The translations under genes and the position numbers were made by a program. Below are positions 41,801-62,598 of a stretch of DNA of 64,000 bases, in pieces. This DNA is from an uncultured virus (IMG/VR IMGVR_UViG_3300025141_000074) (Duplodnaviria > Heunggongvirae > Uroviricota > Caudoviricetes): IMG/VR virus record IMGVR_UViG_3300025141_000074; one strand, 5' to 3'. The stretch's first letter is position 1. Every line of letters begins with the position of its first letter. Below the pieces are notes generated by a model. That model ran no database searches and had not been told where the DNA came from. It saw only the letters and a list, made by a program, of their open reading frames with translations.

Positions 41801-41831
41801 ACAAATCAAGAAATAAAAAGGAGAAATAAAT

Positions 41832-42281: not shown

Positions 42282-42452
42282 GTGGTATACAAAAACTGTT
42301 AAAAAAATTAGATGGGATACAGATATTATAAGTCCTATCATTAAAAAAATTATATGTACAGCCTACAAAAAAGGTTTTGATGGTATTTCTGTTCGCTCGT
42401 CCACAAGAATAGATAGTAGGGGTAGGAAAATATTATTTATTGAGGAGATTAA

Positions 42453-42758: not shown

Positions 42759-42759
42759 T

Positions 42760-43308: not shown

Positions 43309-43322
43309 AGGAGAAAAGCCCT

Positions 43323-44129
43323 ATGGCACAGACTAAAGCAGTTGCGAAAGCAGCGAAGTTAGATCTAGCAGTTCTTGCTAGTGATTCAAAAAATGCAAGT
43401 GGATTTGGTAATCTTGATTTATCAAGAGATATTGCTATCCCTTACATTAATATACTACAAACAACTAGCCCTCAGCTTAATCCAGCGAAAGCGGAATATG
43501 TTGAAGGAGCAAAAGTGGGACAGTTTTATAATACTGTTTCGCAAGAAGTCAGCGAGTCACTCAATGTGATTCCTGTCCTTTATCAACTACGATATGTGGA
43601 ATGGAAACCACGTGAATCCGGTGGCGGATTTGTGGAAGCACATGATGCCGACAGTGGTATTCTTTCTAAAACTAAACGTGATCAAATGACATTTAAAGAT
43701 GTGTTAGAAAATGGCAACTATATTGCCACTACGGCATATCATTATGTCTTGGTTCAAGGAACTGATGGTAATTGGTCACAAGCCGTTATCAGCATGACCT
43801 CTACTCAATTAAAAAAGAGTAGACGTTGGAATAGCTTAATGCTAACCCAAAAAGTTTCTGGTCCATCGGGAAGTTTTACCCCACCTACTTACGCAATGAT
43901 CTATAAACTTACTACAGTTAGTGAGTCTAATGATCGTGGAAGTTGGTTTGGTTATCAAGTTGAGAAAGCTGGACAGGTAGAAGACGCTGACATTTATAAT
44001 GAAGCGAAATCATTTTCAACCGCAGCATCAAGAGGAGATGTAGAAGCTAAACCTACTGTTGAAGGGGAACCTGTAAAAGAGGCTCCAAAATCAAACAGCG
44101 CAGAAAGCGACGAAGACATACCGTTTTAA
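43323..44129 (+). CDS. Putative single-stranded DNA-binding protein
   Basis: Acidic tail ending SDEDIPF; upstream of the primase. Confidence 0.6.
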   Translation: MAQTKAVAKAAKLDLAVLASDSKNASGFGNLDLSRDIAIPYINILQTTSPQLNPAKAEYVEGAKVGQFYNTVSQEVSESLNVIPVLYQLRYVEWKPRESGGGFVEAHDADSGILSKTKRDQMTFKDVLENGNYIATTAYHYVLVQGTDGNWSQAVISMTSTQLKKSRRWNSLMLTQKVSGPSGSFTPPTYAMIYKLTTVSESNDRGSWFGYQVEKAGQVEDADIYNEAKSFSTAASRGDVEAKPTVEGEPVKEAPKSNSAESDEDIPF

Positions 44130-44156
44130 GGTAAGTTTTTGTAACCTGGAGGTTTA

Positions 44157-45647
44157 GTGGAAGAATTCAAAAATATATTTGAAGGTCTCGACGTAGCTTA
44201 TGGTCAGCACCAATCCGAAGGGAAACGTGCTGACGGTAAGGAGGAAGGGAAGTCTTACATTGTTAAAAAAATTGTTACGGATAATTTATGGCAGTCTCAT
44301 TTGGCTGGTGAAGGTCCTTCTTTGGGTATTATTCCTATCATGGCTGATAACACATCCCGATGGGGTTGTATTGATATTGATACTTATCCTATTGATTATC
44401 GTAAAATAATAAACAGTATCAGAAAATTAAAAATACCATTAGTTCCCTGCCGATCAAAAAGCGGGGGGCTTCATTTATTCTTATTTTTTAAAAACCCAGT
44501 ATCCGCCAAATTAATACGAGAGAAATTACGAGAGGTTGCCTCAGGTCTAGGATATTCTTCCGTCGAAGTATTTCCCAAACAATCGACAATACTAATAGAA
44601 AAAGGGGACTTAGGAAATTTTTTAAATCTTCCTTATTATAACGCCAAAAATACAACAAGATATGCTTACAAAGATGATGGAACCGCCGCAACATTGCGCG
44701 AGTTCATATCCTTATATAATAAATATTCAGTGGCCGGTACCGACGAAGTTGCAATCCAGGTATCCGGTGACGTCATAAAGGATGGGCCACCGTGTCTACA
44801 ACAATTATGCACGCAGGGATTTTCAGAAGGAGGAAGGAACAATGGACTCTTTAACATTGGTGTTTACTTAAGAAAATTTGATGCCGATAATTGGAAGACT
44901 TTGTTGGAAGAATATAACAGAAATTATATGGCACCGCCCTTAGCGGCGCAGGAAGTTATTATTGTTCAAAAACAATTAGAGAAAAAAGATTATAATTATA
45001 GATGCAAAGAGCCACCTATTAATTCCTACTGCAATGCTAAAGTATGTAGAGGACGTAAGTACGGTATAGGAAATGGTAGTGCGGCATTAGAATTTAGTGC
45101 GTTAACCAAATTACAGACAGACCCACCAGTGTGGTTTTTGGATGTAGGTGACACGCGAATGGAATTACAAACAGAGGAGTTACAGATACAAACAAAGTTT
45201 CAAAAGAAATGTATGAATTCTTTGGACACGATGCCTCCTCTAGTAAAACAGTCAGTATGGCAGGAAATAATTGAAAGGCTAATGAATAACCTTATCAAGA
45301 TTCCTGTTTCTGATGATGGGTCCTTGGCCGGTCAATTTGAAGCTTTCCTCCAGGAGTTTTGTACTGATCGCGCCCAGGCCTTAAATCGAGATGAATTATT
45401 ATTACGAAAACCCTGGACAGAGGAAGGAACTACTTGGTTTCGGTTAAAGGACTTACAGGATTATTTAACGAGAAATAAGTTTACCTATTTTAACACGGGG
45501 CAATTAGTCCAAGCTTTGAGACATCTTAAAGGTAAAAGTGAAAAATATAATTTAAAAGGCAGGACAGTTCGTGTGTGGGGTGTGCCTGCATACCAAACAC
45601 AGGATTCAGCTTTTGATATAAAGGAGATTGATAGTGCCCCATTCTAA
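44157..45647 (+). CDS. AEP-type primase with PriCT-like domain
   Basis: WGCIDID (DxD), RSKSGGLH, GNFLNLPY, GPPCLQ, GGRNNGLF. Confidence 0.8.
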   Translation: MEEFKNIFEGLDVAYGQHQSEGKRADGKEEGKSYIVKKIVTDNLWQSHLAGEGPSLGIIPIMADNTSRWGCIDIDTYPIDYRKIINSIRKLKIPLVPCRSKSGGLHLFLFFKNPVSAKLIREKLREVASGLGYSSVEVFPKQSTILIEKGDLGNFLNLPYYNAKNTTRYAYKDDGTAATLREFISLYNKYSVAGTDEVAIQVSGDVIKDGPPCLQQLCTQGFSEGGRNNGLFNIGVYLRKFDADNWKTLLEEYNRNYMAPPLAAQEVIIVQKQLEKKDYNYRCKEPPINSYCNAKVCRGRKYGIGNGSAALEFSALTKLQTDPPVWFLDVGDTRMELQTEELQIQTKFQKKCMNSLDTMPPLVKQSVWQEIIERLMNNLIKIPVSDDGSLAGQFEAFLQEFCTDRAQALNRDELLLRKPWTEEGTTWFRLKDLQDYLTRNKFTYFNTGQLVQALRHLKGKSEKYNLKGRTVRVWGVPAYQTQDSAFDIKEIDSAPF

Positions 45648-46056
45648 TTTTAAATACGGAGACAGAAGAAAAGATGGATATGTGTGGGTTGGATTGAGAT
45701 ATAGCCGAGGGAAAAGAAAAGATGGAACTTATCCAAATGATTGGCGTAGCCCACAGTCTTTTGAAAAGAAAAATGAAGCAGGGAGAAAATATAAAAAGAA
45801 AATATATAATTTAATTAGCAAAATGGCGAATGATGAAAAGATAAAACATGGATGTTACCATTGTGGTTATAATAAAGATCCTGTGGCATTGGATTTTCAT
45901 CACATTAATAGAGCTAATAAGATTAGAAATGTATCAAGTCATTGGAGAACAAGCATGGTACAATTTAAAAAAATGAAAGAAGAATGGAAAAAATGTATGG
46001 TTCTGTGTGCTAATTGTCATAGACTAGAGGAGAAAAGGATTAGAAATGAAAACTAA
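45628..46056 (+). CDS. HNH endonuclease
   Basis: CYHCG...LDFHH...CMVLCANCHR. Confidence 0.85.
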   Translation: MIVPHSNFKYGDRRKDGYVWVGLRYSRGKRKDGTYPNDWRSPQSFEKKNEAGRKYKKKIYNLISKMANDEKIKHGCYHCGYNKDPVALDFHHINRANKIRNVSSHWRTSMVQFKKMKEEWKKCMVLCANCHRLEEKRIRNEN

Positions 46057-47545
46057 AATAATATTAGGACCTCCTGGTACAGGGAAAACGCACAACTTAT
46101 TAAATTTGGTTGAACAAGAATTAGCGAAAGGTACACCACCGGACCGTATCGCCTTCGTGGCTTTTACAAAGAAAGCGGCTAGTGAAGCGAGGGACCGGGC
46201 TACAAAGAAGTTTGATTTAGAAGAACAACATTTACCTTATTTTAGAACATTGCATTCATTTGCCTTTCATCAGTTAGGATTAACAAAATCAGAAGTAATG
46301 TCACGTGATAATTATAAAGAGTTTGCGCAGTCATTCGGCATGGATCTAGGATCAGTATCTGATGGTGTAGATTCCGGTGGAGTATTTACAGTTGATAACC
46401 AGCTCCTATCAGAGGTTAATTTATCACGAATGAAATGTATGGATTTAGAACAACATTATAATGATTCTAATTTAGATGTATCTTGGCACGCACTACTCAG
46501 AGCTCAACGTTCACTTGAAGAATTTAAAAAGAAAAAAGAAGTATTAGATTTTACAGACATGATAGAAATGTACATTGAATCAGGAATGATTCCGAAATTA
46601 GATATAGTTTTTGTTGATGAAGCACAGGATTTATGCGCCCTACAGTGGCGTATGGTACATAAAATTTGTCAAAACGCCAAACAAGTGTACGTAAGCGGTG
46701 ATGATGATCAAGCTATTTACCGTTGGGCTGGTGCAGATGTAGAACATTTAATTGGTTTGGATGGTGAAAGACAAGTCTTACAACAGTCTTATAGATGCGC
46801 ACGCCTTATACAAAATTGTTCACAAGGAATTATAGGTAGGGTTCAAAATAGAATTAATAAAACATGGCATGGTACAAACACTAGAGGATTAGTGCAATAC
46901 CATTCTTACCCCGACAGTGTAGATATACGCGATGAGAATTGGCTTATCATGGCACGAACCAATTATTTACTCGATGAAATAGAACGCGACATAAGATTAC
47001 AAGGATTATTTTATAAAAGAAATAATCGTTTGCCTATATCGCAGAAATTATTAAATGCTACAGCTTCTTGGAAAAAATTAAATCAAGGTGAGCATATAGA
47101 ATTACCAGAAGTGAAAACTATTTATTCTTATATGTCATCAGAAATAGGAATAGAACGCGGTCACAAAGGTTTAAAAACAGCTGATAAAGAAAATTATGAA
47201 CTAGAAGATTTAGTTAAGAATCATGGATTACTTGTAGGAGGAAGACCGTGGGATGTAGCTTTTGATAAGGTAGGAACGCGTGATAAAGAATTTTTACGGT
47301 CTATTGAAATGAGAAACAAGGATTTTGTAAAATCAGATCCAAAGATTCATTTAAGCACGATTCATGGTGCTAAAGGAGGAGAAGCAGACAAAGTTATGTT
47401 GCTGACAGACTTATCAAGAAAGTCACAGGAAGCAATGGAAAAAGATTCAGATGATGAATGCCGTGTATTTTATGTAGCAGCTACACGTGCTCGTAATGAG
47501 CTACACATAGTACAACCACAAAGACAGGGAGGGTTCATAATATGA
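46046..47545 (+). CDS. UvrD/Rep-like SF1 helicase
   Basis: GPPGTGKT, AFTKKAA, VDEAQD, GDDDQAIY, STIHGAKGGE, YVAATRA. Confidence 0.92.
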   Translation: MKTKIILGPPGTGKTHNLLNLVEQELAKGTPPDRIAFVAFTKKAASEARDRATKKFDLEEQHLPYFRTLHSFAFHQLGLTKSEVMSRDNYKEFAQSFGMDLGSVSDGVDSGGVFTVDNQLLSEVNLSRMKCMDLEQHYNDSNLDVSWHALLRAQRSLEEFKKKKEVLDFTDMIEMYIESGMIPKLDIVFVDEAQDLCALQWRMVHKICQNAKQVYVSGDDDQAIYRWAGADVEHLIGLDGERQVLQQSYRCARLIQNCSQGIIGRVQNRINKTWHGTNTRGLVQYHSYPDSVDIRDENWLIMARTNYLLDEIERDIRLQGLFYKRNNRLPISQKLLNATASWKKLNQGEHIELPEVKTIYSYMSSEIGIERGHKGLKTADKENYELEDLVKNHGLLVGGRPWDVAFDKVGTRDKEFLRSIEMRNKDFVKSDPKIHLSTIHGAKGGEADKVMLLTDLSRKSQEAMEKDSDDECRVFYVAATRARNELHIVQPQRQGGFII

Positions 47546-47835
47546 CCAAAGAAGAAATATTAGCTGAAGCTAGTAGAATAATATCCAGAGATAGAAATTT
47601 ATCTCATGGAGATGCATTCAAGAATCATGCAGAGATTGCAGAGTTTTGGAATTTGTTTTTAGATGATAAGTTACGACCTATGGCTGATATTACAGCTAAA
47701 GACGTGGCAATTATGATGATATTATTAAAAATTTCACGTTCCAATCAGGGAAAGAAATTTAACTTGGATAATTTTGTTGACATGGCGGGTTATTCAGCGA
47801 TTGCAGGAGAAATTGGTGACTCAGGATCTTTTTAA
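47542..47835 (+). CDS. DUF6378-like all-alpha nucleotide pyrophosphohydrolase-like protein
   Basis: RNLSHGD...IAEFW...VAIMMILLKISR...DNFVDMAGY. Confidence 0.65.
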   Translation: MTKEEILAEASRIISRDRNLSHGDAFKNHAEIAEFWNLFLDDKLRPMADITAKDVAIMMILLKISRSNQGKKFNLDNFVDMAGYSAIAGEIGDSGSF

Positions 47836-49660
47836 AACAGTAAATTCCAATTGGGTTGCACCCACGGAATTTCCTAAACTTGAAGGCAAAGTAGCAGTAG
47901 ATCTAGAGACGTGTGATCCACACTTAATCAAGGAAGGACCAGGATGGCCACGTAAGCGTGGTTATGTCATTGGCATCGCTATAGCGAATGCCTCTTTTAA
48001 AGGATACTATCCTATTGCTCACTCTGGTGGGGGGAACATGGACGAAAAGAAAGTTATTAAGTATGTTAAGTCCATATGTGAAGACGCTTTCATAGAGAAA
48101 TTGTTTCACAATGCGCAATACGATATTGGTTGGCTTTCCACCCTTGGAATAGAAGTTAAGGGAAGAGTTCATGACACCATGGTAGCTGCGGCACTCATAG
48201 ATGAGAATAGATTCTCCTATACATTAAACAGCATTGTGCATGAATATCTAGGAGAGTTTAAGAATGAACAAAAGCTTAAGGAAGCGGCTGACGCCTTTGG
48301 CGTTGATCCCAAGAATGAAATGTACAAGTTGCCATCCACCTTTGTGGGTGAGTACGCTGAAGCGGATGCTGATCTGACATACAAGTTGCATGAAAAATTA
48401 TCATGGGAAATTGTCAAGGATAATCTTACAACGGTATATGATCTGGAATGCAATCTTATTCATGTAATTTACAGAATGACCAAGACGGGTGTGAGATTTG
48501 ATCAATATAAATGCGTGAGTCTTAATGACAAATTTAAAAATAAAGAAAAAAAATTAATGAAAAGGATTAAGGATCTAACCGGACTTAATATAGAGATATG
48601 GGCAGCAGCATCCATCTCGAAAGCTTTTGATGCGTTGAACCTACCCTATGAAAGAACGGAAAAGACCAATGCTCCTTCCTTTACGAAGATGTTCCTTACG
48701 GACCATCCACATGAGTTACCTCGGTTAATTATGCAGGCGAGGGAATTGAACAAATTAAGGGGAACCTTCCTGCATGGGTTATTAAATCACAACAATGACG
48801 GGAGGATACATGCTCACATTAACCAAATTAGGTCTGACAGTGGAGGTACTGTCACTGGTCGCTTTTCTTATAATCATCCTAATTTACAGCAGATTCCGAG
48901 TAGGGGTCAATTCGCGAAAGACATTAGGAAACTTTTCATCCCGGAAAGTGGGAAGTACTGGCTCAAAGCGGACTACTCGCAACAAGAGCCCAGGTTACTT
49001 ACACACTGGGCAAGACTCGTCGACCAACCCGGTGCTAGGGAAGTACAGGAAGCATATCATAAAACGGACCTCGACTTTCACCAACAAACAGCCGAAATGG
49101 CAGGTGTGGAGAGACGTCTTGCGAAGACTATCGGACTAGGTGTCATGTATGGCATGGGCTATAATAAATTAGCGCGTGACTTGGACCTTGAACCACAGGA
49201 AGCAAAGAAAATGCTTACTGATTTCCGTGCACGTGTACCCTTTATGCAAGGAATGCTCGAAGCAGTTATGAATAGGGCCAATTCTAAGGGTGTTATTCGT
49301 ACATTGCTTGGACGTAAATGTAGGTTTGATTTATGGGAACCAACACAATGGGGTGTTCACAAGGCACTCCCGCTGAATCAAGCAAAGGTGGAATATGGTG
49401 ATGCTATTAAAAGAGCATATACTTACAAGGCATTAAATAGATTGATTCAAGGCTCAGCTGCGGATCAAACCAAGAAAGCCATGGTTGATGTATATGAACA
49501 ATTAAATCTCATTCCTCACATCCAGGTACATGATGAACTTAACTGTTCTGTAACAGATGAAAATGAAGGAAAGAAAGTAAAGGAAGTAATGGAAACTTGC
49601 GTGGAACTTGAGGTTCCATCAAAGGTCGACATCAATGTAGGAGAAAGTTGGGGCGAATGA
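47816..49660 (+). CDS. polA: Family A DNA polymerase with 3'-5' exonuclease
   Basis: DLET, HNAQYD, TGRFS..PNLQQIP, DYSQQEPR, KTIGLGVMYG, IQGSAAD, VHDEL. Start moved to GTG 47816 after AGGAG. Confidence 0.95.
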   Translation: MTQDLFKTVNSNWVAPTEFPKLEGKVAVDLETCDPHLIKEGPGWPRKRGYVIGIAIANASFKGYYPIAHSGGGNMDEKKVIKYVKSICEDAFIEKLFHNAQYDIGWLSTLGIEVKGRVHDTMVAAALIDENRFSYTLNSIVHEYLGEFKNEQKLKEAADAFGVDPKNEMYKLPSTFVGEYAEADADLTYKLHEKLSWEIVKDNLTTVYDLECNLIHVIYRMTKTGVRFDQYKCVSLNDKFKNKEKKLMKRIKDLTGLNIEIWAAASISKAFDALNLPYERTEKTNAPSFTKMFLTDHPHELPRLIMQARELNKLRGTFLHGLLNHNNDGRIHAHINQIRSDSGGTVTGRFSYNHPNLQQIPSRGQFAKDIRKLFIPESGKYWLKADYSQQEPRLLTHWARLVDQPGAREVQEAYHKTDLDFHQQTAEMAGVERRLAKTIGLGVMYGMGYNKLARDLDLEPQEAKKMLTDFRARVPFMQGMLEAVMNRANSKGVIRTLLGRKCRFDLWEPTQWGVHKALPLNQAKVEYGDAIKRAYTYKALNRLIQGSAADQTKKAMVDVYEQLNLIPHIQVHDELNCSVTDENEGKKVKEVMETCVELEVPSKVDINVGESWGE

Positions 49661-50178
49661 GTTGGTTATGTGCAGTGTTATTAATATGTGTACCTTTCAA
49701 GCCAGAAATGGATTACACCAACAATGAGGAATTCATTGAGGATATTACAGCGTGTACGTTGCATTTGAATTCAATGGAAGAGGATCACAACAGGATTCCA
49801 GTAAATTTAGTGATAGCACAAGCCATTCATGAATCGGAATGGGGACATTCCAGGTTTGCAACAATTGGTAACAATTTGTTAGGGATCCGCACTTTTGACT
49901 CAGCCGATGACCAAATGAAGCCGCTTAATATACCTAATGCTAGCTGGGGGCTTAGGATCTTTGAGACTAAATGCGAATCCATATCTTACTATATTGATTT
50001 ACTTAATAATAACCATCATTATAGAGACTTTAGAGAGGAGCGATTAACCCAGTATATCAGCGACATAGTGGACCTTGAATCTTTGGCTAGGACACTTGCA
50101 ATTTATGCCGAAGATGTATATTATACGCAAAAAATCACCAAAACATTAAAACAATTAGAGGCCTATGACAGAGATTAG
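49657..50178 (+). CDS. Glucosaminidase-domain (GH73/Bax-like) protein
   Basis: IAQAIHESEWGHSRFATIGNNLLGI...YAEDVYY; hydrophobic N-terminus. Confidence 0.8.
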   Translation: MSWLCAVLLICVPFKPEMDYTNNEEFIEDITACTLHLNSMEEDHNRIPVNLVIAQAIHESEWGHSRFATIGNNLLGIRTFDSADDQMKPLNIPNASWGLRIFETKCESISYYIDLLNNNHHYRDFREERLTQYISDIVDLESLARTLAIYAEDVYYTQKITKTLKQLEAYDRD

Positions 50179-51274
50179 AAAACCCGGGTACCGTGAACAA
50201 GGAAAGAAACGTGTAGCAGCGAACAAGCCTATTGCGGGAGTTAAGCCAGGTTTTGCTATTAACCCGGAGCAGATGGAATATGAAAGAAGAAAACTTTTGG
50301 AAGAAATGTCTACAAAACTTACGCCTAATAGAAAGACGCTTAATACAATGGCAGCAGTTGCGGCAACACAAGAGCCAGAGTATTTTGATGAAGAAGGAAA
50401 GAAAAGAGAGCCAACGATGCGTGTATTATCACTCGGGGCAGGGGTTCAGTCATCCTGTTTGGCACTCATGGCGCAAGAAGGACTGACAAAACACAAACCA
50501 GATTACATGATATTTGCCGATACTGGATGGGAACCTTCCTTCGTGTATGAGCATGTAGAATACTTAAAGAAAGCAATAACGATCTGTCCACTCATTACTG
50601 TAGAACGTGGTAATATCCGTGAGGATCTTATCCGCGCAGCGAACCCCATTAAAGGGTCAAATGAGGAGCATAAATCTTTCGCCGGACGTGTACCAAATCC
50701 ACCACTATTTGCTGCACGTCCTGGTGGAAAGGTTGGAATGTTATACCGTCAATGCACCCATGACTATAAAGTTATTCCTATTCAAAAAAAGATGAGGGAA
50801 TTACTTGGCATAAAACCAAGACACCGTGTTAAAAAAGGACAGTTAGTAGAACAATGGATTGGTATATCCACCGATGAAGCAATGCGCATGAAGAAGGCGC
50901 GGATGCCATGGCTTACATCAAGATGGCCATTAATTGAAATGAAAATGTCACGTGCTGATTGCCTGCAATGGTACCGTGATATAAAAAAACACCCTATGCC
51001 TGGCAAATCGTCGTGCATAGGGTGCCCTTACCACCATAATGATCAGTGGAAAAACATGCAGAAGAATTATCCAAAGGACTGGGATGATGCGTGTGAAGTT
51101 GATGACAAGATCAGGCATGGATTAAAGAACACACCAGCAGAACTATTTCTTCATAAGTCAGCGAAGCCGCTTAGAAGTATAAATTTCCTTGAGCCAAAGA
51201 AACAACAAAGTTTATTTGGAGAAACGTTTGATGAAGAATTTTCAGATGAATGTGAGGGACTTTGTGGAGTATGA
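50165..51274 (+). CDS. PAPS-reductase/DndC-like PP-loop protein with Cys clusters
   Basis: SLGAGVQSS (variant PP-loop), FADTGWE, RQCT, WIGISTDE, SSCIGCPYH, ECEGLCGV. Confidence 0.75.
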   Translation: MTEIRKPGYREQGKKRVAANKPIAGVKPGFAINPEQMEYERRKLLEEMSTKLTPNRKTLNTMAAVAATQEPEYFDEEGKKREPTMRVLSLGAGVQSSCLALMAQEGLTKHKPDYMIFADTGWEPSFVYEHVEYLKKAITICPLITVERGNIREDLIRAANPIKGSNEEHKSFAGRVPNPPLFAARPGGKVGMLYRQCTHDYKVIPIQKKMRELLGIKPRHRVKKGQLVEQWIGISTDEAMRMKKARMPWLTSRWPLIEMKMSRADCLQWYRDIKKHPMPGKSSCIGCPYHHNDQWKNMQKNYPKDWDDACEVDDKIRHGLKNTPAELFLHKSAKPLRSINFLEPKKQQSLFGETFDEEFSDECEGLCGV

Positions 51275-51449
51275 TAAAAGCACCGTGCGCCCAGGACCAG
51301 AATTTAAGTGTACACAATGTGGTAGATGGTTTAAAAAATTATTATATTGGACAAGTAAAAAGTTTAATCCGGAACAAAAGTATGATATAATGATGCTATG
51401 CGGACCGAAATGTTCATTAAAATCATATGGCGAAAGTAGGATTAAGTAA
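51189..51449 (+). CDS. Small Zn-finger protein (start uncertain)
   Basis: CTQC...CGPKC. Confidence 0.55.
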   Translation: MSQRNNKVYLEKRLMKNFQMNVRDFVEYDKSTVRPGPEFKCTQCGRWFKKLLYWTSKKFNPEQKYDIMMLCGPKCSLKSYGESRIK

Positions 51450-51503
51450 ACATAAAGGCCGACGAAAGTTAGGCAAGAAAAAGAGAAAGAAGAGGTCATC
51501 AAA

Positions 51504-52148
51504 ATGGCGCAAGAAAAAGACGGGAAAGTAGTAATAGCGAAGATTCCAATTCAGGATACACGCCTGTTCTACAAGAACTATGATAATTATTCCAATCTCA
51601 ACAACTTGTTGATGACGGAGATAGAGAAGGAAAAGAAAAAGGATCCTAAAGGATTAGAGGCAACCAATCCAGGTTGCTGGAGAAGTATGTTCAAGTACCA
51701 GTGTGAAAAGGAACTGATGAAACCAATTGGAATTATTCTTTCCGCCTGGACGGATCACTACTTGCCAGGAAAGGTCGTGGATGCACAAATAACCTACTGG
51801 ACAAATGTTAACGAGCCAGGTGGGGCCAACATCTTTCACACTCACTACCGTGCGGATGCGGACCTATCCGGTGTCTATTACGTGAAGGGACACGGAACCG
51901 GAGTCATTCGTTTTGCGACGCATGAGCAGATGTACAAGATGATTCCTGTACACATGCCACACGCCAACATGATTGGACACAATCCAACGGACGGTGACAT
52001 ACTGTGCTTTCCATCCTATATATTGCATGATGTGGTACCTAATCCATCGAAGGGACAGCGAATTTCAATTGCGTTCAACGTGAAATTTGCCATCAAGGAA
52101 AAGGATAATGTGGTTCCCTTGACTAAAAAAGTGGAAGAGGGCAAATGA
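51504..52148 (+). CDS. 2OG-Fe(II) oxygenase (TIGR02466-like)
   Basis: WTNVNEPG...HTH...LSGVYYV...FPSYILHDV.PN...RISIAFN. Confidence 0.85.
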   Translation: MAQEKDGKVVIAKIPIQDTRLFYKNYDNYSNLNNLLMTEIEKEKKKDPKGLEATNPGCWRSMFKYQCEKELMKPIGIILSAWTDHYLPGKVVDAQITYWTNVNEPGGANIFHTHYRADADLSGVYYVKGHGTGVIRFATHEQMYKMIPVHMPHANMIGHNPTDGDILCFPSYILHDVVPNPSKGQRISIAFNVKFAIKEKDNVVPLTKKVEEGK

Positions 52149-52384
52149 TGGACGTTTGGGACCCAGGAGAGGAAACGACGGTATTCCGCCAAATAAAAAA
52201 GCTCATATCTCGCTCCTATCGGGGTTTAAAAGGTTGGGTGGTGTGTTTGTACCCGGGTAATTTAGTGTTTTTGGCCAAAGACTGGTTCTATTCACTATGT
52301 GAGCATTATGGTGGGGCCATCAGCTGCTGGGCATGGCAAAAGCGTTGGAGTAAACAAAATAGAAAGAGATACAAGCATGGTTAA
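52145..52384 (+). CDS. Hypothetical protein
   Basis: Coupled ORF; ISCWAWQKRW. Confidence 0.55.
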   Translation: MMDVWDPGEETTVFRQIKKLISRSYRGLKGWVVCLYPGNLVFLAKDWFYSLCEHYGGAISCWAWQKRWSKQNRKRYKHG

Positions 52385-52694
52385 AATGGAATGGAAGCAA
52401 GAAGACTTAGAGCTTGCTGGTGAACTAATTAAGAATCATACAGCAACTGAAGTTGGAAAAATTTTTAACAAATCTAAAAACGCTATCCTTGGTGTTCTTT
52501 ATCGAGAGAAAATAAAAAATGGTTATGTGCCAGCTCCTGATTCTCCATATTCAAAAGCACGGATGAGAAATAGATTCAAGAGTGATCCGGCATTGGGTGA
52601 AATGAAATGCTACATATGTTCAACGACTTTTACCAGGTCCGGACGATTTGATCGCTTCTGTTATGAATGTAGAAGGACGGGACGAGTTGCGTGA
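52377..52694 (+). CDS. GcrA-like HTH regulator with C-terminal Zn finger
   Basis: MEWKQEDL...TATEVGKIFNKSKNAILGVLYR resembles the GcrA N-terminal domain; CYIC...CYEC. Confidence 0.6.
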   Translation: MVKMEWKQEDLELAGELIKNHTATEVGKIFNKSKNAILGVLYREKIKNGYVPAPDSPYSKARMRNRFKSDPALGEMKCYICSTTFTRSGRFDRFCYECRRTGRVA

Positions 52695-53092
52695 TAGAAA
52701 GGAAGTTAGATAAATATGTACAAGTACTTAACAACATTGATGACGCTCAAGATAAATTTGTTTGGATTATGGATTTTGGAAAAAATTCCAAGCCAATGGA
52801 AGACGAAAACAGGACTAGATATTTTGAAGTTCCAGGCTGTCAATCACAGACGTGGTTGGTACCGCATTTTATTGATGATAAAATATATTTTACTGCTGAT
52901 TCAGCTGCACTTATATCTAAGGGCATGGTCTGTATCATTGCGGATGTGTACAGTGGATCTACGGCCCAGGACATAAATGATTTTGATCAGAGAGAATTTG
53001 AAAAAATGAATCTTAATACATTATTAACACCAGGTAGAAATAATGGTGTTAATAGTATGTTAAAAAAAATTAAATATTATGCTACAGAATAA
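52691..53092 (+). CDS. sufE: SufE-family sulfur acceptor protein
   Basis: VPGCQSQTWL, ADSAALISKG, LLTPGRNNG. Confidence 0.88.
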   Translation: MIERKLDKYVQVLNNIDDAQDKFVWIMDFGKNSKPMEDENRTRYFEVPGCQSQTWLVPHFIDDKIYFTADSAALISKGMVCIIADVYSGSTAQDINDFDQREFEKMNLNTLLTPGRNNGVNSMLKKIKYYATE

Positions 53093-56097: not shown

Positions 56098-56427
56098 ATG
56101 AATAATTACATGTCAAAAAACGAATTAGCTGAATCGCTTGGGATTAGTCTTGCAACGATTAATCGCAAACTAAAAGAAATTCCTCATGTAAAAATGGGGG
56201 GTGTCCAACAAAGTAGGGTATTATTTGATCCTGAAAAGATTAAGAAATATCTTAAAAAATTTGAAGTTAACCTACCCATGGATAAAAAAGATTCGGAACG
56301 TGATTTGAGTTGGGCACAAAATTTTTGGCCTTACCATGACAAAGAAGGCACGATAGTCTTTCTTAACGAAGTGAATCCAAATAACAAGCGTGATCAACAG
56401 CAATGGGGCAGAATTTTAGATGGTTGA
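56098..56427 (+). CDS. Excisionase/AlpA-like winged HTH DNA-binding protein
   Basis: YMSKNELAESLGISLATINR...IPHVKMGG...RVLFD. Confidence 0.7.
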   Translation: MNNYMSKNELAESLGISLATINRKLKEIPHVKMGGVQQSRVLFDPEKIKKYLKKFEVNLPMDKKDSERDLSWAQNFWPYHDKEGTIVFLNEVNPNNKRDQQQWGRILDG

Positions 56428-57129: not shown

Positions 57130-57499
57130 CTTATGGCAAAATAAAAAGGTTATCGAGAAGGTAGTCAAGCAGTTTGAGGGTGATGAGAAGGTGCTGGAAT
57201 TTATCAAGAACAATTTTGATAAGGATGAGGAATTACCTAGACTGGACCGCGAAAAAGGATATCTTCGTCCTAAAAAGAGTGATATAATAATTACATGGTC
57301 AAAAGTAGCTACTTATGTTCGCAAAAATGCACCAAAGAGACTGGGTCTCAATGAGCAGGAAGAGGAGCTTAAGGATACATTGGATAAGTCAATTACCCAG
57401 GAGACTATTAATGAATGGGGTAAAAATGAGATGTTTAGGCAAGTAAGAAAGCATTATTGGGGTCACCCCAATGCAAAAGGACAAGAAGATATTAGATAA
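57110..57499 (+). CDS. Hypothetical protein
   Basis: Overlapping ORF in the same operon. Confidence 0.6.
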   Translation: MQTYEINLWQNKKVIEKVVKQFEGDEKVLEFIKNNFDKDEELPRLDREKGYLRPKKSDIIITWSKVATYVRKNAPKRLGLNEQEEELKDTLDKSITQETINEWGKNEMFRQVRKHYWGHPNAKGQEDIR

Positions 57500-57515
57500 G
57501 CGACTAGGATGGACG

Positions 57516-57743
57516 ATGAAAAAGAACACGAAGAAGGAAGGATTGACACCCAAGCAAAAATGGGTGTTTGAGGCCATCAAGGACTTCATTCAACAGAATG
57601 GACATTCACCCTCTTATGAGGAGATCAAGCAGCTGATGGGGGTACGCTCCAAGAGTAATGTGCATGCATATGTGCATAGATTAGCGACACGTGGATGGAT
57701 AGGATTTGGAAATGGCAGAAATCGGTCAATTTACATTTTATAA
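57516..57743 (+). CDS. LexA-type DNA-binding domain protein (no peptidase domain)
   Basis: LTPKQKWVFEAIKDFIQQNGHSPSYEEI...GVRSKSNVHAYVHRLATRGWI...RSI. Confidence 0.8.
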   Translation: MKKNTKKEGLTPKQKWVFEAIKDFIQQNGHSPSYEEIKQLMGVRSKSNVHAYVHRLATRGWIGFGNGRNRSIYIL

Positions 57744-57958: not shown

Positions 57959-58636
57959 GTGGTAGATGAACGATTGAAAGGTGCCACAAGTGGTGCCACA
58001 AATGTGGTCAAAAAGAGGCAATGGATTCCAGGTGAAAAGGGCCATGGACGCCCAGGAGTTCCTGGAAGTGGTGGAGCTAAACACCATCCACTCAGGGCTG
58101 ATGGATTGACTGACAAGCAACAGATCTTTGTTAAGATATTTACAGAGAATGAAGGTAGGATGACACCCACTGAATGTGCTAGGCAAGCTGGTTATGCTGA
58201 AGGATCGGCGAGTATAACTGCATCTGTTTTATTAAATGGTAAAAGATACCCTAAGGTGGTAGAAGCTATCCTCGCACGACGTGCTGAGATGGAAAAGACG
58301 CATGAGGTTAAACTAAATAAACATGTACAGGAATTGGCTAGGCTGCGTGAAAGGGCTCTTAATGAGAAGTCTTATTCTGCTGCTGTTAATGCTGAGCGCT
58401 TGCGAGGGCAAGCTGCGGGATTGTACATCGATAGAAAAGAAATTCGAACGGGTTCAATTGACAGTATGTCTAGAGAGGACGTTTTAAACAAGTTAAAGGA
58501 AATAGGATTAGATGGAAAATTTAAAAAGGAAGGCAATCAAACTGTCCTTTCGGTCGAAGAGAAATCCAGTAGCGATGGAGCTGAAGACATCACCGAAATA
58601 CAAACAGAGGATAGTGAAAGACAAGACAAAGTATGA
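57959..58636 (+). CDS. terS: Terminase small subunit
   Basis: LTDKQQIFV...TECARQAGYA...ASVLL; AAVNAERLRGQAAGLY. Confidence 0.8.
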   Translation: MVDERLKGATSGATNVVKKRQWIPGEKGHGRPGVPGSGGAKHHPLRADGLTDKQQIFVKIFTENEGRMTPTECARQAGYAEGSASITASVLLNGKRYPKVVEAILARRAEMEKTHEVKLNKHVQELARLRERALNEKSYSAAVNAERLRGQAAGLYIDRKEIRTGSIDSMSREDVLNKLKEIGLDGKFKKEGNQTVLSVEEKSSSDGAEDITEIQTEDSERQDKV

Positions 58637-59040
58637 CCGTAAAACCGGAAACAAACTTTTGGAAGAGTTTAAAGACATTATTAGACGGTGGTGACTATAT
58701 TGTTTCACGCCTTGAATCATATGTCACACCGGGTTTTCCCGATTGCATAATATTTCACAATGTTACAGGATTCTTCACAGTTGAATTAAAGATAGTTCAA
58801 CCTAATAATAAAATACACCTCTCTCCCTTCCAAATTTCCTGGAATTCACGTCATGCGATAGCAGGAGCCCATTCTTACATCTTAGTTAACCTACCCCTCA
58901 AGGGTACGGTTAAACTGTTTCACGGGTGTAAAACAAAGGAACTAGGGCATAGCACCGTGGACCAAGTGCCCGGGTTATACGAGGGAAGGCTCGAGGACCT
59001 AGATTGGCTTAAACTCCCAAACTCCTGCAAAAACCCTTAA
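58633..59040 (+). CDS. PD-(D/E)XK nuclease, Holliday-junction-resolvase-like
   Basis: ETNFW...RLES..TPGFPD...VELK...LSPFQISW. Confidence 0.75.
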   Translation: MTVKPETNFWKSLKTLLDGGDYIVSRLESYVTPGFPDCIIFHNVTGFFTVELKIVQPNNKIHLSPFQISWNSRHAIAGAHSYILVNLPLKGTVKLFHGCKTKELGHSTVDQVPGLYEGRLEDLDWLKLPNSCKNP

Positions 59041-59222
59041 ACCTCACTATATGGGCCGTGGATCCTGTGGTCCGGGCGCCCGGCGCGCAGCTTCTTCCTG
59101 TCAAGTTCAAACTCCGAAACTCCATAGGGGAAGCCAAAATCCTTAAATGATAATACAGGGTCAGGATCCTGGATGCCCGGGGCGCAGCTGGAGTGCGTCA
59201 GGAAAAAAGTTCAAATGAGCTG

Positions 59223-59251
59223 TTGCATTGTGGATAACTTTATGTTATAAT
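59223..59251 (+). promoter_or_regulatory. sigma70-type promoter with a DnaA box in its spacer
   Basis: TTGCAT 59223-N17-TATAAT 59246 with extended TG; TGTGGATAA at 59229-37. Confidence 0.75.
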
Positions 59252-59351
59252 AAGGGTAGAAATAGAGTATTTATAAGCGCAAGTATACTTGGTCTGTTTG
59301 TATGGTTAAAAGCCCGTACTCTATTTCTTATAAATAGAAATGGAGCAAAAT

Positions 59352-59564
59352 ATGGTTGTAGATGATACAATAAGCCAAGCACTCAATAGGATTGCTGATG
59401 GCATAGAAGAAAGTAATGCATTATTAGATAGGATTGCGAATCATTATGATGGGGTTGTTCCCATTATGACACGCAATCAAAAGAGAGCTGAAGCGTTAGC
59501 CGAGGAGCAAGAGCAAACTTTTGCACAAGGTATAAAGAACATCTTTAGTCCTCAAGAGCATTAA
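59352..59564 (+). CDS. Small coiled-coil hypothetical protein
   Basis: GGAG RBS, ATG 59352; ALNRIADGIEESNALLDRIANHY. Confidence 0.7.
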   Translation: MVVDDTISQALNRIADGIEESNALLDRIANHYDGVVPIMTRNQKRAEALAEEQEQTFAQGIKNIFSPQEH

Positions 59565-59887
59565 ACTCCTAAACTCCCATAGGTTATCTATAAGTAAAAA
59601 TTGTGGATAACCTGTGGATAATTTGGGCACCGGGGGCGCTGCGCGCTGACGCAAACTCCCGTTAAAAAACATAAGGCTTTCTGCCGTTTTGTGCGAGCTT
59701 CATTGTTCCCACCGGGCGCGCCCGGGATTTCCGTGGAGCGATGAGCTTTGGAAAATAAGAATGGCTGATTTGCTTGTGTCCCGGGCCTTAAATAAATACG
59801 CCTGGACCCTGAATACCTGTTGACCTTCCAGGAAGCAGGTGGTAAAGATGGTATTTAAACGAAGAGATGGGAAGAAAGAGAAAGAAA

Positions 59888-59980
59888 ATGGCGCATTTAA
59901 TAGGTATTTTAATACTCGGAACCGTGAAGGTTGCAGCTGGAGCTGCAGTCATTTGGATCCTCGTGCAGCTGCTGGGGTGA
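59888..59980 (+). CDS. 30-aa hydrophobic membrane peptide (not in ORF track)
   Basis: MAHLIGILILGTVKVAAGAAVIWILVQLLG after a purine-rich leader. Confidence 0.5.
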   Translation: MAHLIGILILGTVKVAAGAAVIWILVQLLG

Positions 59981-60120
59981 TGTAAACTCCCGTAAACTCC
60001 CTTAACCTCACTAAACTGCAAATGTTTGGTCTTTGGTTTCGGGCACCGGGCGCGCCCGGGTGGAGTGGCGATGGAGATGAGACTTGGTCAAAGTTATCCA
60101 CAAGAAAAAGAAAGATTGGG

Positions 60121-60149
60121 TTGAGATGAATTACATTTGATGATATAAT
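60121..60149 (+). promoter_or_regulatory. sigma70-type promoter
   Basis: TTGAGA 60121-N17-TATAAT 60144; DnaA box at 60094-60102. Confidence 0.7.
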
Positions 60150-60153
60150 GATG

Positions 60154-60322
60154 ATATGTGTTGGTAGCCACACATATAAAAAAGGACTACCAGTCTAAGC
60201 TGAGGAGAACCCAGTGAACGCTTATGCGTACGGAAGTGTATAAGGGCTTCCATAAGCAACATAGTTGCCAGACGCTAGACAAGATGAGGCAAGATAAACG
60301 GAGTTATTCGGCTCTTGCCTCA
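60154..60322 (+). ncRNA. Candidate small structured RNA (~165 nt)
   Basis: Directly follows a near-consensus promoter; several helices; ends in a 10-bp stem TGAGGCAAGA/TCTTGCCTCA; no convincing ORF. Confidence 0.5.
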
Positions 60323-60334
60323 CAAACTCCCTTG

Positions 60335-60450
60335 CAAACTCCTATTCCAATCTAATTGCCCATTAATACGAATCAGTTCCCGGGCGCGCACAAACTCCCA
60401 CAAACTCCTATTCCAATCTAATTGCCTATTAATACGAATCAGTTCCCGGG
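60335..60450 (+). repeat. 50-bp tandem duplication, 66-bp period, 1 mismatch
   Basis: CAAACTCCTATTCCAATCTAATTGCCYATTAATACGAATCAGTTCCCGGG at 60335 and 60401. Confidence 0.95.
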
Positions 60451-60491
60451 GGCGCCTGTCTTCAGGCACGGCAGTTCAGATTATTAGGCAT

Positions 60492-60522
60492 AAAAAAAGG
60501 GCGAACATTGTTCGCCCTTCTT
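60492..60522 (-). terminator. Rho-independent terminator for 60541..60828
   Basis: AAAAAAAGGGCGAAC-ATT-GTTCGCCCTT; the A-run gives a U-tract on the minus strand. Confidence 0.8.
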
Positions 60523-60540
60523 ATAACTATGTGGATAGGT

Positions 60541-60828
60541 TTACATAGTTAAACCCATTCTTTTCAAGATGTATCCAACATCACCTTGCAGTCTTTTAAT
60601 CAAGTCAAGTCTTGCCTCCTTATCTTCTGCAACCCACTCAACGAGTGAGTTCATTAGTACACCACTAATTAGTTTCCAATCCATACTGTCTTTTGCAGGA
60701 ACTTTACTAATCAGTTGTTCCAAGTCTCCAATACTTGCTTGGTCTTTGGAGTATTCTATTACTTCCTTCATTACAGGAGTAATATCAACGTTGTTGATTG
60801 ATTTCGTAGTAGTTAAATCGTTTGGCAT
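60541..60828 (-). CDS. Hypothetical protein
   Basis: AAAGGA RBS, own terminator, DnaA boxes upstream. Confidence 0.7.
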   Translation of the reverse strand: MPNDLTTTKSINNVDITPVMKEVIEYSKDQASIGDLEQLISKVPAKDSMDWKLISGVLMNSLVEWVAEDKEARLDLIKRLQGDVGYILKRMGLTM

Positions 60829-61137
60829 AATTACCTATCCTTTCTATTTCTAATTAATAGATATCATGCATCATCAACCATTGATATAGCTAAATGCAAT
60901 TAGTTGTGGATAACTATTGTCAATAGCTAATAGTAGTAAGTTGTGGATAACCTGTGGATAACTGCGCCCGGGCTCTTATTGCGGCTCACTCCGTTCGCCG
61001 CCCGGTCCAGACTCCCAAACTGCGAGGGGGGAACCCCCCTTTCGACTTACCTCCTCTAGAATTTTGCGAAGGCAAGATTGAGAGTGACAATCACCCCAAA
61101 AAACGTTATGACTCTTATTTGTAAAAATTTTTAAAAA

Positions 61138-62598
61138 ATGGAAACAGTTTCGAATTTAGAATCCCTCGATACAAACACGCTCAAGCTACTTTTAAGAAAT
61201 GAGCTTGCAAGAAAGCAAGAAGCCTCCCAGGCAGATTTTTTAAAATTTGTGAAAGTTGTTTGGCCAGACTTCATCGAAGGAAAACATCACAAAATTTATG
61301 CGGAGAAATTGAACCGTATAGCAAATGGGGACCTAAAAAGGCTTATTGTCAATATGCCTCCTCGTCATACAAAATCAGAATTTGCTTCACACCTCTTTCC
61401 GGCCTTTTATATGGGCCGTCACCCAAAAGCCAAATTAATTCAGACAACACATACTGGGGAATTAGCCATTCGCTTTGGACGTAAGGCCAAGAACATGATA
61501 GAGTCCTCGGATTATGAAAAAGTTTTTCCAGATGTCAGGTTGGCAGCCGATTCAAAAGCTGCTGGACGTTGGGAGTCTAATCATGGTGGTGAGTATTTTG
61601 CTGCTGGTGTGGGTGGTGCTATCACTGGGCGTGGTGCTGATCTCCTTATTATTGATGATCCTCATTCGGAACAAGATGCTCTTTCACCACACGTTTTGGA
61701 GCAACATTACGAGTGGTACACTTCTGGTCCTCGTCAGCGTTTACAGCCAGGAGGCGCTATAGTTCTTGTTATGACAAGATGGTCTGTCAAAGACCTCACT
61801 GGTAAATTGCTCGAGGCCCAAGGAAAAAGTGAAATGTCGGACGAGTGGGAGATCGTGGAATTTCCTGCCATTATAAAAGATAAACCCATGTGGGGAAATT
61901 TCTGGACCATGGACGGATTGCAAGGCGTCAAGGCTTCCATCCCACTAACCAAGTGGCAAGCACAATGGATGCAGCAGCCTACTTCCGAGGAAGGTGCACT
62001 TATAAAACGTGAGTGGTGGCAGATATGGGAAGAGGAAAAGATTCCTCAATTGGAATTTATTATTCAGTCCTATGACACAGCATTCTCCAAAAAAGAAACA
62101 GCCGATTATTCAGCGATTACGACGTGGGGCATATTTGACCCCGACAACGGAAAGGGAAAGGCCCTTATCCTGTTGGATGCGAAGCGTGATCGGTGGAATT
62201 TTCCGGAGCTAAAAAAGGAGGCCATGGACCAATTTAAGTACTGGGAACCGGAGATGGTTATTGTGGAAGCGAAGGCTTCTGGGCTACCATTAACTCATGA
62301 GTTGCAAAAGATGGGAATACCTGTTATAAATTTTACACCCTCAAAAGGAAACGATAAACATTCGAGGGTAAACAGCGTGGCTCCACTATTCGAAGCAGGA
62401 GCCGTTTGGGCGCCCAAAAAAGATTTCGCTGAAGAGGTTATCGAAGAATGCGCAGCATTCCCTTTCGGCGACAATGATGACTACGTGGATTCTACCACGC
62501 AGGCCTTGATGAAATATAGACAAGGCTACCACGTTATGCTAAAAGATGACTTTGAAGATGAGCCAAGTGCTGAAACCGCGGGGAGGGTTTACTACTAA
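61138..62598 (+). CDS. terL: Terminase large subunit
   Basis: NMPPRHTKS (Walker A), LLIIDDPH (Walker B), SYDTA, IVEAKASG, DDYVDST nuclease motif. Confidence 0.95.
   Translation: METVSNLESLDTNTLKLLLRNELARKQEASQADFLKFVKVVWPDFIEGKHHKIYAEKLNRIANGDLKRLIVNMPPRHTKSEFASHLFPAFYMGRHPKAKLIQTTHTGELAIRFGRKAKNMIESSDYEKVFPDVRLAADSKAAGRWESNHGGEYFAAGVGGAITGRGADLLIIDDPHSEQDALSPHVLEQHYEWYTSGPRQRLQPGGAIVLVMTRWSVKDLTGKLLEAQGKSEMSDEWEIVEFPAIIKDKPMWGNFWTMDGLQGVKASIPLTKWQAQWMQQPTSEEGALIKREWWQIWEEEKIPQLEFIIQSYDTAFSKKETADYSAITTWGIFDPDNGKGKALILLDAKRDRWNFPELKKEAMDQFKYWEPEMVIVEAKASGLPLTHELQKMGIPVINFTPSKGNDKHSRVNSVAPLFEAGAVWAPKKDFAEEVIEECAAFPFGDNDDYVDSTTQALMKYRQGYHVMLKDDFEDEPSAETAGRVYY

What the first reader, a model, noticed from the sequence alone, without database searches (positions are those of the whole stretch)
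59011..60456. Repeat-delimited array of mini expression cassettes between terS and terL
Seen: seven copies of a two-part motif, AAACTCC (usually doubled) followed 44-60 bp later by a GC-rich CCG(3-5)CGC element. In two copies the GC element is the perfect palindrome CCGGGCGCGCCCGG (59712, 60046). The inner sequence differs between units. The motif starts exactly where each passenger ends: it overlaps the stop of the 70-aa ORF (TAA 59562-64; AAACTCC 59563), starts 4 bp after the stop of the 30-aa peptide (59980; 59984), and 2 bp after the last hairpin of the candidate RNA (60322; 60324). The layout is repeats, promoter+ORF, repeats, peptide, repeat, promoter+RNA, repeats. Units 6 and 7 are a near-identical tandem duplication. 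Inference: the repeats may be recombination or protein-binding sites defining exchangeable gene cassettes, conceptually like integron attC sites or T4-type PeSL modules but with no integrase. The adjacent resolvase-like nuclease (58633..59040) could be involved. Alternatively they are terminase/terminus signals, like the short repeats flanking T7 termini. I know of no description of this motif.
Basis: partly seen in the sequence, partly recalled or inferred. Interest (0 to 1): 0.85.

Follow-up and report, generated by a model that had tools for sequence, protein, structure and literature searches.

The report
Repeat-spaced early-gene island of marine phages
A group of abundant ocean viruses keeps the genes it probably switches on first in a small island, where repeated DNA spacers separate tiny genes and interchangeable RNA hairpins, and those hairpins may be an undescribed toolkit for taking over the host cell.

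Summary
The repeat is real and not chance. All 13 plus-strand AAACTCC of the 64-kb window lie in 59011-60408, forming seven units with a CCGG element about 55 bp downstream. The window is an HTVC023P-type marine phage, and the unit is conserved in 73 non-redundant relatives, only in the nuclease-terL interval (990 copies inside, 19 in flanks).

In the cultured relative HTVC027P, all six genes labelled early lie in this interval.

It is not an integron-like system: order is fixed in 73 of 73, only six protein families recur, and mosaic breakpoints avoid the units and favour promoters and RNA junctions. Whole cassettes are occasionally lost or gained at unit/promoter blocks, as with T4 PeSLs.

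Best reading: the units are separators (terminators or insulators, some DnaA-bound) of an immediate-early island. Genome-end/packaging and origin roles remain open. The most novel part is the RNA array: invariant loops on covarying stems that move between slots and between phage lineages.

The parts
57959..58636 (+). terminase small subunit (left boundary)
   Evidence: PF03592 E 2.9e-6, phrog_51
58633..59040 (+). 135-aa putative nuclease; its 3' end overlaps unit 1
Evidence: phrog_2165 E 2e-12 (PHROG label 'DNA helicase'), no Pfam hit; homologs in HTVC027P, 023Pt_psg01, DSL-LC04.
59011..59088 (+). unit 1 (heptamers 59011, 59019; GC element 59072)
59109..59185 (+). unit 2 (heptamers 59109, 59117; GC element 59176)
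59223..59251 (+). promoter P1, sigma-70 type (-35 59223, 17-bp spacer, -10 59246), with a perfect DnaA box (59229-59237) inside the spacer
   Evidence: same layout in many relatives; predicted only
59258..59328 (+). stem-loop module in the P1 leader, absent from the closest relative L001
   Evidence: fold z -2.9; arms I23; deletion in L001 and in a contig of run X17
59352..59564 (+). ORF70, amphipathic-helix protein with conserved HY..VVP.M; unknown function
   Evidence: 65 of 73 relatives; alignment A3; no Pfam, PHROG or cultured-phage hit; PDB hits only to designed coiled coils
59563..59644 (+). unit 3, containing a tandem pair of DnaA boxes (59602, 59613)
   Evidence: 127 of 492 units in relatives hold a perfect box
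59653..59726 (+). unit 4 with the 14-bp palindrome at 59712
59820..59848 (+). probable promoter P2, degenerate here; TTGACA-17-TATATT in relatives
   Evidence: relatives L014, L088, L137, L143, L146, L147; in the window by eye only, not found or 44
59888..59980 (+). 30-aa single-pass membrane peptide
   Evidence: profile hit in 64 of 73; a slot of similar size in most of the rest
59984..60060 (+). unit 5 with the 14-bp palindrome at 60046
60094..60149 (+). DnaA box (60094) and promoter P3 (-35 60121, -10 60144; 11 of 12 consensus, extended TG)
60155..60322 (+). non-coding RNA built of modules: pseudoknot-like element (about 60158-60192), multi-hairpin junction, terminal hairpin A (60286-60321)
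   Evidence: fold z -3.0; hairpin A in 58 of 73 loci, 8 of 13 pairs with two-sided changes; no Rfam match; the pseudoknot is by eye only
60324..60455 (+). units 6 and 7, a recent tandem duplication (single in L001)
60491..60525 (.). hairpin with a U-tract on the minus strand: intrinsic terminator of the reverse operon, probably also a backstop for plus-strand transcripts
   Evidence: I9; related hairpin in 60 loci (family A4)
60541..60828 (-). ORF95, all-helical protein, universal in the clade; unknown function
   Evidence: 73 of 73; low-confidence model, best Z 5.2
60890..60971 (.). three DnaA boxes (60905, 60942, 60953) and an inverted GC element (60964), upstream of the reverse operon
   Evidence: the tandem pair is shared by 38 of 41 loci
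61138..62598 (+). terminase large subunit (right boundary)
   Evidence: phrog_38, TIGR01630; 64-66% to HTVC027P and 023Pt_psg01

Best explanation
The interval is the immediate-early (host-takeover) island of an HTVC023P-type phage, and the repeats are its cis-acting separators. Shown: each of three plus-strand cassettes is a sigma-70-type promoter plus a small protein or RNA; clusters of 1-4 units lie between the end of one passenger and the next promoter; DnaA boxes sit in a quarter of the units and beside or inside the promoters. Inferred: after entry, host RNA polymerase transcribes the cassettes strongly. The units end or insulate each transcript, most likely as factor-dependent terminators (a C-rich, G-poor loading stretch right after the stop, and a GC-rich pause element about 56 nt on; Rho is my guess), otherwise as DNA-bound roadblocks. 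Host DnaA tunes the promoters and is titrated as phage DNA multiplies. Ordinary homologous recombination between repeated unit/promoter blocks now and then deletes or duplicates a cassette, as with T4 PeSLs, while faster turnover swaps RNA stem-loop modules through short shared stems and leaders.
For: Unit confined to the interval and to the sense strand: 990 + copies against 22 - copies in 187 kb, and 19 + copies in 319 kb of flank. Starts at passenger ends. 492 of 513 units have the GC element; modal heptamer-to-CCGG distance 56. The terminator scan found no intrinsic terminator after ORF70, the peptide or the RNA (it also missed the 60491 hairpin, so it is insensitive). G is scarce for about 20 nt after the heptamer (C 2419 vs G 1635). 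Promoters with 17-bp spacing are conserved. In HTVC027P the six genes labelled Early in Table S3 of PMC12753301, gp34-gp39, lie between terS (gp29) and terL (gp40); five of them average 150,000-240,000 TPM at their peak. There, period-7 repeats lie at the 3' ends of reverse-strand genes and directly before their promoters, so they are inverted with the cassettes. The lineage of L010 (terL 64%) has a CTCC...CCNGG unit at similar spacing. Fixed order and breakpoint distribution.
Against: No expression, termination or binding data exist for this phage; the one RNA run gave 10 small contigs and shows nothing. The exact heptamer is more conserved than the degenerate Rho sites I recall, and the C-over-G skew is modest. 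DnaA boxes inside units point to a double-stranded-DNA role. HTVC027P has no perfect DnaA box in the 9 kb examined, no such repeats before its strongest operon gp35-39, and shares no detectable ORF70 or ORF95, so 'early' is inferred from position only; homology of its repeat to AAACTCC is a guess. A finer test shows 3-4-fold peaks of tract ends at heptamer edges and just after the GC element, so units are not free of exchange. The host is unknown.
Confidence: 0.5

Rival explanations
1. Genome-end signals. The physical end or pac site lies in the island; TerS (or another phage protein) binds the heptamer/CCGG units and DnaA boxes act during DNA entry, as proposed for the T5 first-step region. 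Early promoters sit here because this end enters first.
For: Position between terS and terL; every lineage examined has its own repeat in this interval; unit period 80-100 bp; T5 has paired DnaA boxes among repeats and palindromes in its terminal repeat (bioRxiv 10.1101/866236). Early regions next to terminase genes in T7 and SPO1 are recalled, not checked.
Against: The TerS recognition helix varies widely while the heptamer stays, and near-identical TerS N-termini go with heptamer purity from 0.43 (L113) to 1.0 (L132). The HTVC027P repeats follow cassette orientation, not the terS-terL direction. Contig ends are spread over the whole interval, which is uninformative. SPP1 pac overlaps terS itself (PMC6316719).
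Confidence: 0.22
2. DnaA-assisted origin of replication, or DnaA sink. The heptamers are binding or priming sites for a phage initiator or the primase-polymerase; DnaA opens the DNA or is sequestered so that host initiation stops.
For: 461 perfect DnaA boxes inside against 3 outside, often as head-to-tail pairs; the window encodes its own PolA, UvrD helicase and AEP primase; the heptamer is strand-specific.
Against: Units are tied to stop codons and promoters rather than forming one origin block; no conserved DnaA-trio or unwinding element by eye; no initiator among the 28 proteins scanned; three cultured relatives have no perfect box in the region.
Confidence: 0.17
3. Dedicated cassette-exchange system: the units are recombination sites acted on by the adjacent nuclease or another recombinase.
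For: Cassette loss (8 of 73) and gain (at least 4 of 73) between unit clusters; unit number 4-12 per locus; palindromic GC cores; short divergent patches right after the GC element in window vs L001.
Against: Fixed order 73 of 73; six protein families; tract ends depleted in units, ratio 0.45-0.80 at three thresholds; cassettes carry their own promoters; units lack a conserved fold (mean z -0.75 sense, -0.47 antisense); no recombinase among 28 proteins scanned.
Confidence: 0.08

Closest known systems
PeSL elements of T4-type phages RB49/phi1 (PMC2839356)
   Same: Repeated intergenic modules tied to sigma-70 early promoters in a plastic region; passengers lost or gained by recombination between repeats; no integrase.
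   Different: PeSLs carry an intrinsic stem-loop terminator and are spread over hyperplastic regions with many ORFans. Here the unit is a heptamer pair plus a CCGG element with no U-tract, includes DnaA boxes, sits in one 2-4 kb island with fixed order, and much of the cargo is RNA.
T5 first-step-transfer repeat regions / injection stop signal (bioRxiv 10.1101/866236)
   Same: Paired DnaA boxes among direct repeats and palindromes, next to the earliest genes; repeats better conserved than the ORFs.
   Different: Box pairs are 2 bp apart here, 3 bp in T5; no large inverted repeats; no evidence that the island is in a terminal repeat or that entry is two-step.
T7/T3 short repeats at the termini; SPO1 host-takeover module (both recalled)
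   Same: Heptamer arrays or repeated promoter modules with small early genes near terminase genes.
   Different: Termini unknown here; bipartite unit, DnaA boxes and RNA arrays are not part of those systems as I recall them.
Integron attC cassette arrays (features recalled)
   Same: Repeats with conserved ends and a variable middle flank short passengers.
   Different: No integrase nearby, no hairpin fold, own promoters, fixed order, closed cargo pool.
Phage RNA decoys such as pseudo-ToxI and RNA anti-CRISPRs; CsrB/Rsm sponges (recalled)
   Same: Short structured RNA units expressed early that could mimic host protein ligands.
   Different: Here the units are many different motifs in changing combinations, with no Rfam match and no known target.

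Membership tests
Integron/attC | Adjacent IntI tyrosine recombinase | tested here: not met
   No recombinase family among 28 proteins from 37787-62595 scanned against Pfam; the other ORFs of the window were not scanned
Integron/attC | Site folds into a single-strand hairpin | tested here: not met
   120 sampled units: mean z -0.75 (+) and -0.47 (-); z below -2 in 19% and 17%
Integron/attC | Promoterless cassettes, variable order, open pool | tested here: not met
   Own promoters; same order in 73 of 73; 6 recurrent families
PeSL | Repeated sigma-70 early promoter | tested here: met
   TTGnnn-17-TATAAT/TATATT behind unit clusters; activity not shown
PeSL | Stem-loop that is an intrinsic terminator | tested here: not met
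   No hairpin plus U-tract at the units (insensitive scan)
PeSL | Passenger indels bounded by the repeats | tested here: met
   ORF70 loss, and L133/L135, L137, L147 gains; a minority of all changes
PeSL | Mini-circles formed between repeats | not testable with these tools
   Only contigs could be laid
T5 iss-like region | Paired DnaA boxes among repeats and palindromes | tested here: met
T5 iss-like region | Located in a terminal repeat; stops injection | not testable with these tools
   No read-end data; no termini in the passages read
pac / terminal short repeats | Recognised by TerS | tested here: inconclusive
   No covariation of the TerS helix with the heptamer; binding not tested
Iteron/DnaA origin | DnaA boxes plus direct repeats | tested here: met
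Iteron/DnaA origin | Cognate initiator and unwinding element | tested here: inconclusive
   None recognised among 28 proteins; unwinding element judged by eye only
Rho-dependent terminator | C-rich, G-poor unstructured stretch after the stop, release site downstream | tested here: inconclusive
   Position and skew fit; 3' ends and Rho dependence not testable
Rfam RNA families | Match at gathering score | tested here: not met
   Window interval: best 27.2 bits against a cut-off of 57, at the terminator; 20 loci: 0 matches

The most novel reading that the evidence does not exclude
The island is a combinatorial RNA toolkit. The earliest promoters of these very abundant marine phages make arrays of short structured RNAs whose invariant loops, carried on freely covarying stems, are decoys or inhibitors of distinct host proteins (defence or regulation). 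Modules are traded between slots and across phage lineages. The AAACTCC/CCGG units are an undescribed bipartite terminator/insulator, and DnaA boxes tie island output to the replication state of the host.
Probability: 0.35. Interest if true: 0.87.

Novelty: new variant of a known kind. Interest (0 to 1): 0.68.

Why it matters
HTVC023P-type phages are reported as the most abundant known phage group in most marine viromes analysed (bioRxiv 10.1101/2019.12.14.876532), and their early genes have no known function (PMC12753301). This locus points to where host takeover is probably encoded and shows a layer that gene-based annotation misses: many non-coding RNA modules under evident selection, a DnaA-box cluster strictly confined to the island, and a lineage-specific spacer motif. 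A cultured relative with a host exists (HTVC027P), so transcript ends, termini and RNA-binding partners can be tested directly. It also explains why assemblies of these phages often break here.

Tried and rejected
Rfam: nothing. Earlier scan findings: nothing. RNA payloads against cultured phages and ORF95/ORF70 against cultured phages: no match. ESM Atlas: only unnamed viral clusters. ORF95 fold: pLDDT 66, best Z 5.2, uninformative. Termini and expression: only contigs, no read ends; the RNA run gave 10 records at low depth; contig ends of partial loci were spread evenly. Host: the unit pattern in genome contigs gave 5 hits, two phage-type contigs in one MAG and three single hits without phage markers; host targets of the RNA loops could not be searched. 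Antisense reading of hairpin A: disfavoured, because its apical part covaries as a stem with a tetraloop. CsrA-sponge reading: weak, because GGA changes to GGT in 4 of 31 variants. The loop's GGAGTT is complementary to the heptamer; noted, not tested. DnaA-trio origin motif: fits the window at 60930-60940 by eye, not conserved. A 10-bp phasing between heptamer and DnaA box is explained by the 11-bp box pair. Two automatic module finders were too coarse; the explicit indel list returned 0 events, probably from too strict a filter, and was replaced; one search crashed after its first results and was finished. Literature searches listed no description of this motif. Three of the supplementary files of PMC10690425 (viral candidate RNAs) were not searched, so hairpin A may be listed there.

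Full report
OBSERVATION. AAACTCC occurs 13 times on the + strand of the window, all in 59011-60408, and the seven CCG(3-5)CGC elements follow 44-60 bp after the last heptamer of each unit. A second-order Markov model expects 0.135 heptamers in the interval. The palindromes, the unit 6/7 duplication and the abutment to stops are as stated.

WHAT THE PHAGE IS. TerL is 64-66% identical to HTVC027P and 023Pt_psg01, 60% to DSL-LC04 and 56% to HTVC023P, and the upstream 135-aa ORF has homologs in three of these. The window is therefore an HTVC023P-type marine phage with its own PolA, UvrD helicase and AEP primase. The host is unknown: the unit pattern hit only 5 genome contigs, two of them phage-type contigs in one MAG.

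CONSERVATION. Among loci L001-L349, 113 hold a complete nuclease-terL interval with terL at 72% or more; they reduce to 73 non-redundant ones. These hold 990 plus-strand heptamers in 187 kb against 19 in 319 kb of flank, and 461 perfect DnaA boxes against 3. Two further loci with terL at 63-67% also carry the motif; the other 11 complete loci below 72% do not. Of 129 new loci found with the unit pattern, 118 carry a marker gene of the island; 8 are short viral fragments and 3 are lone bacterial hits. There are 513 units, 4-12 per locus; 492 have a CCGGG/CCCGG element; the heptamer is usually doubled at 8 nt; adjacent units repeat every 80-100 bp. The modal distance from the last heptamer to CCGG is 56 bp. 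127 of 492 units hold a DnaA box, 112 of them units inside a cluster.

ANATOMY. The layout is: units, P1, ORF70; units, P2, membrane peptide; unit, P3, optional W-rich 45-58-aa ORF, RNA hairpins; units; terminator; a reverse operon with ORF95; a DnaA pair; terL. Promoters are TTGnnn-17-TATAAT/TATATT, and in many loci a DnaA box lies inside the P1 spacer. Units start within 8 nt of the passenger end in 41 of 65 (ORF70), 38 of 64 (peptide) and 32 of 57 (hairpin A) cases; where hairpin A is farther away, another hairpin usually intervenes.

TEST OF THE CASSETTE IDEA. The order is the same in 73 of 73; the peptide was missed by the profile in 9, most with a slot of similar size. Six protein families recur: ORF95 73, ORF70 65, peptide 64, a 90-aa beta-barrel 53, W-rich 31, a 58-aa membrane protein 13. 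Whole-cassette changes exist: ORF70 with its promoter is missing in 8 loci, and the remaining upstream units in L045 match both flanking clusters of L089; L133, L135, L137 and L147 carry extra promoter+hairpin cassettes. In the near-identical pair L133/L135 the junction is a 29-nt block with the DnaA box just after the GC element. The ORF95 operon is inverted in 10 of 73. Overall, ends of near-identical tracts are depleted in units (39 vs 63 expected) and enriched in promoter zones (82 vs 27) and leaders/RNA (48 vs 33); the depletion holds at three thresholds, the leader enrichment at two of three. A finer test finds 3-4-fold peaks at heptamer edges and after the GC element but about 40-fold peaks at the edges of hairpin A; edges of any conserved motif produce such peaks, and relatives are not independent. 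Between the window and L001 (terL 98.8%) the large differences are four hairpin-module changes, one extra DnaA pair and the unit 6/7 duplication.

THE RNA LAYER. The P1 leader, the P3 payload and the reverse-operon leader hold stem-loops whose apical 20-45 nt are constant while the stems change. Hairpin A is in 58 of 73 loci; module C is in 14 of the other 15 and never together with A. In 31 chosen variants of hairpin A (of 38 collected), 95% of cells pair and 8 of 13 pairs change on both sides, above all 500 shuffles and all slid controls. Three of 13 modules tested occur in two different slots. Module C was found 78 times in viral contigs, 38 of them with no AAACTCC within 400 nt, on compensating stems, in other lineages including loci directly before a terL. 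None matches Rfam. Function is unknown; protein decoys are my inference from the internal structure.

EARLY REGION. In Table S3 of PMC12753301 the HTVC027P genes labelled Early are gp34-gp39, all between terS (gp29) and terL (gp40) (the text places gp34 in an extra cluster). Other lineages have different repeats in the same interval. In HTVC027P, period-7 repeats lie at the 3' ends of reverse-strand genes and directly before their promoters; L010 has a CTCC...CCNGG unit at similar spacing. Against a simple transfer: HTVC027P shares neither ORF70 nor ORF95 and has no perfect DnaA box there.

MECHANISM. Shown: position, strand, spacing, conservation, fixed order, modular RNA. Inferred: early expression, termination or insulation at the units, DnaA regulation or titration, recombination as a by-product. 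I give this 0.5 (about 0.3 for a Rho-type RNA signal, 0.2 for a DNA-bound factor), genome-end/packaging 0.22, origin or DnaA sink as the main role 0.17, and a dedicated exchange system 0.08. TerS does not covary with the heptamer, and units have no conserved fold. Termini could not be mapped.

COMPARISON. It works most like PeSLs (PMC2839356) but lacks their terminator hairpin; it shares paired DnaA boxes with the T5 first-step region (bioRxiv 10.1101/866236); it fails the attC tests. T7, SPO1, Rho-site, attC and RNA-decoy features are recalled and come from no call.

PAPERS SEEN. PMC9599517: passages; no mention of DnaA or intergenic repeats in the main text. 10.1101/2019.12.14.876532: passages. 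PMC12753301: abstract, section 12, rows of Tables S2 and S3. 10.1101/866236 and PMC2839356: abstract and passages. PMC6316719 and PMC11598899: passages. PMC10690425: supplement search only, three files not searched. Eight searches listed no description of the motif; subscription papers and preprint supplements were not covered.

VERDICT. A real, clade-wide, apparently undescribed regulatory scaffold of a probable immediate-early island; not an integron analogue; with an unexpected modular RNA cargo. New variant of a known kind; interest 0.68.

Noticed in passing
L104:5224-5490 (-) and relatives; absent from the window: A 90-aa protein in the ORF95 operon of 53 of 73 relatives folds confidently (pLDDT 92) as a small beta-barrel like phage WYL/DUF2693 proteins, with weak Sm/Hfq-type PDB matches; a possible RNA-binding partner of the hairpins.
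   Followed up: partly
window 57471-57743 and 56098-56427: A stand-alone LexA DNA-binding domain (E 5e-15; homologs in 182 loci) and an Xis/MerR-type HTH protein just upstream of terS: candidate binders of the units.
   Followed up: partly
L351, L390, L407: Other phage lineages carry much longer promoter-driven arrays of RNA hairpins, several hundred bases, that share module C.
   Followed up: no
L004-L009; L010; L160-L162: Lineage-specific repeats in the same interval: C5-TTCG-G5 hairpins with flanking repeats; CTCCATT units; period-7 arrays in HTVC027P; other short repeats in 023Pt_psg01 and HTVC023P.
   Followed up: partly
window 59258-59328 and 60286-60321: Summed contig depth in the bins holding these two hairpins is about 1,100-2,100 in runs X1 and X3, against about 40-260 in neighbouring island bins: the modules are probably shared by many co-occurring genomes.
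   Followed up: no
L451, L452: Two contigs of a MAG labelled Planctomycetaceae carry this phage island with terS, nuclease and terL homologs; probably phage contigs binned into the MAG, not evidence of host.
   Followed up: partly
L045 and 30 other loci: The W-rich 45-58-aa ORF behind P3 often contains an in-frame perfect DnaA box and a further promoter-like site at its 3' end.
   Followed up: no
L137; L074, L080: Extra genes inserted between the island and terL, outside the units.
   Followed up: no
window 39928-53092: Auxiliary genes: HSP20, 2OG-Fe(II) oxygenase, SufE, glucosaminidase; the PolA scores 289 bits to DpoZ, below its cut-off of 500.
   Followed up: no
window 60299-60304 vs 60325-60330: The loop of hairpin A (GGAGTT) and the Shine-Dalgarno region of many ORF70 homologs are complementary to the heptamer that follows; a pairing or pseudoknot is possible.
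   Followed up: no
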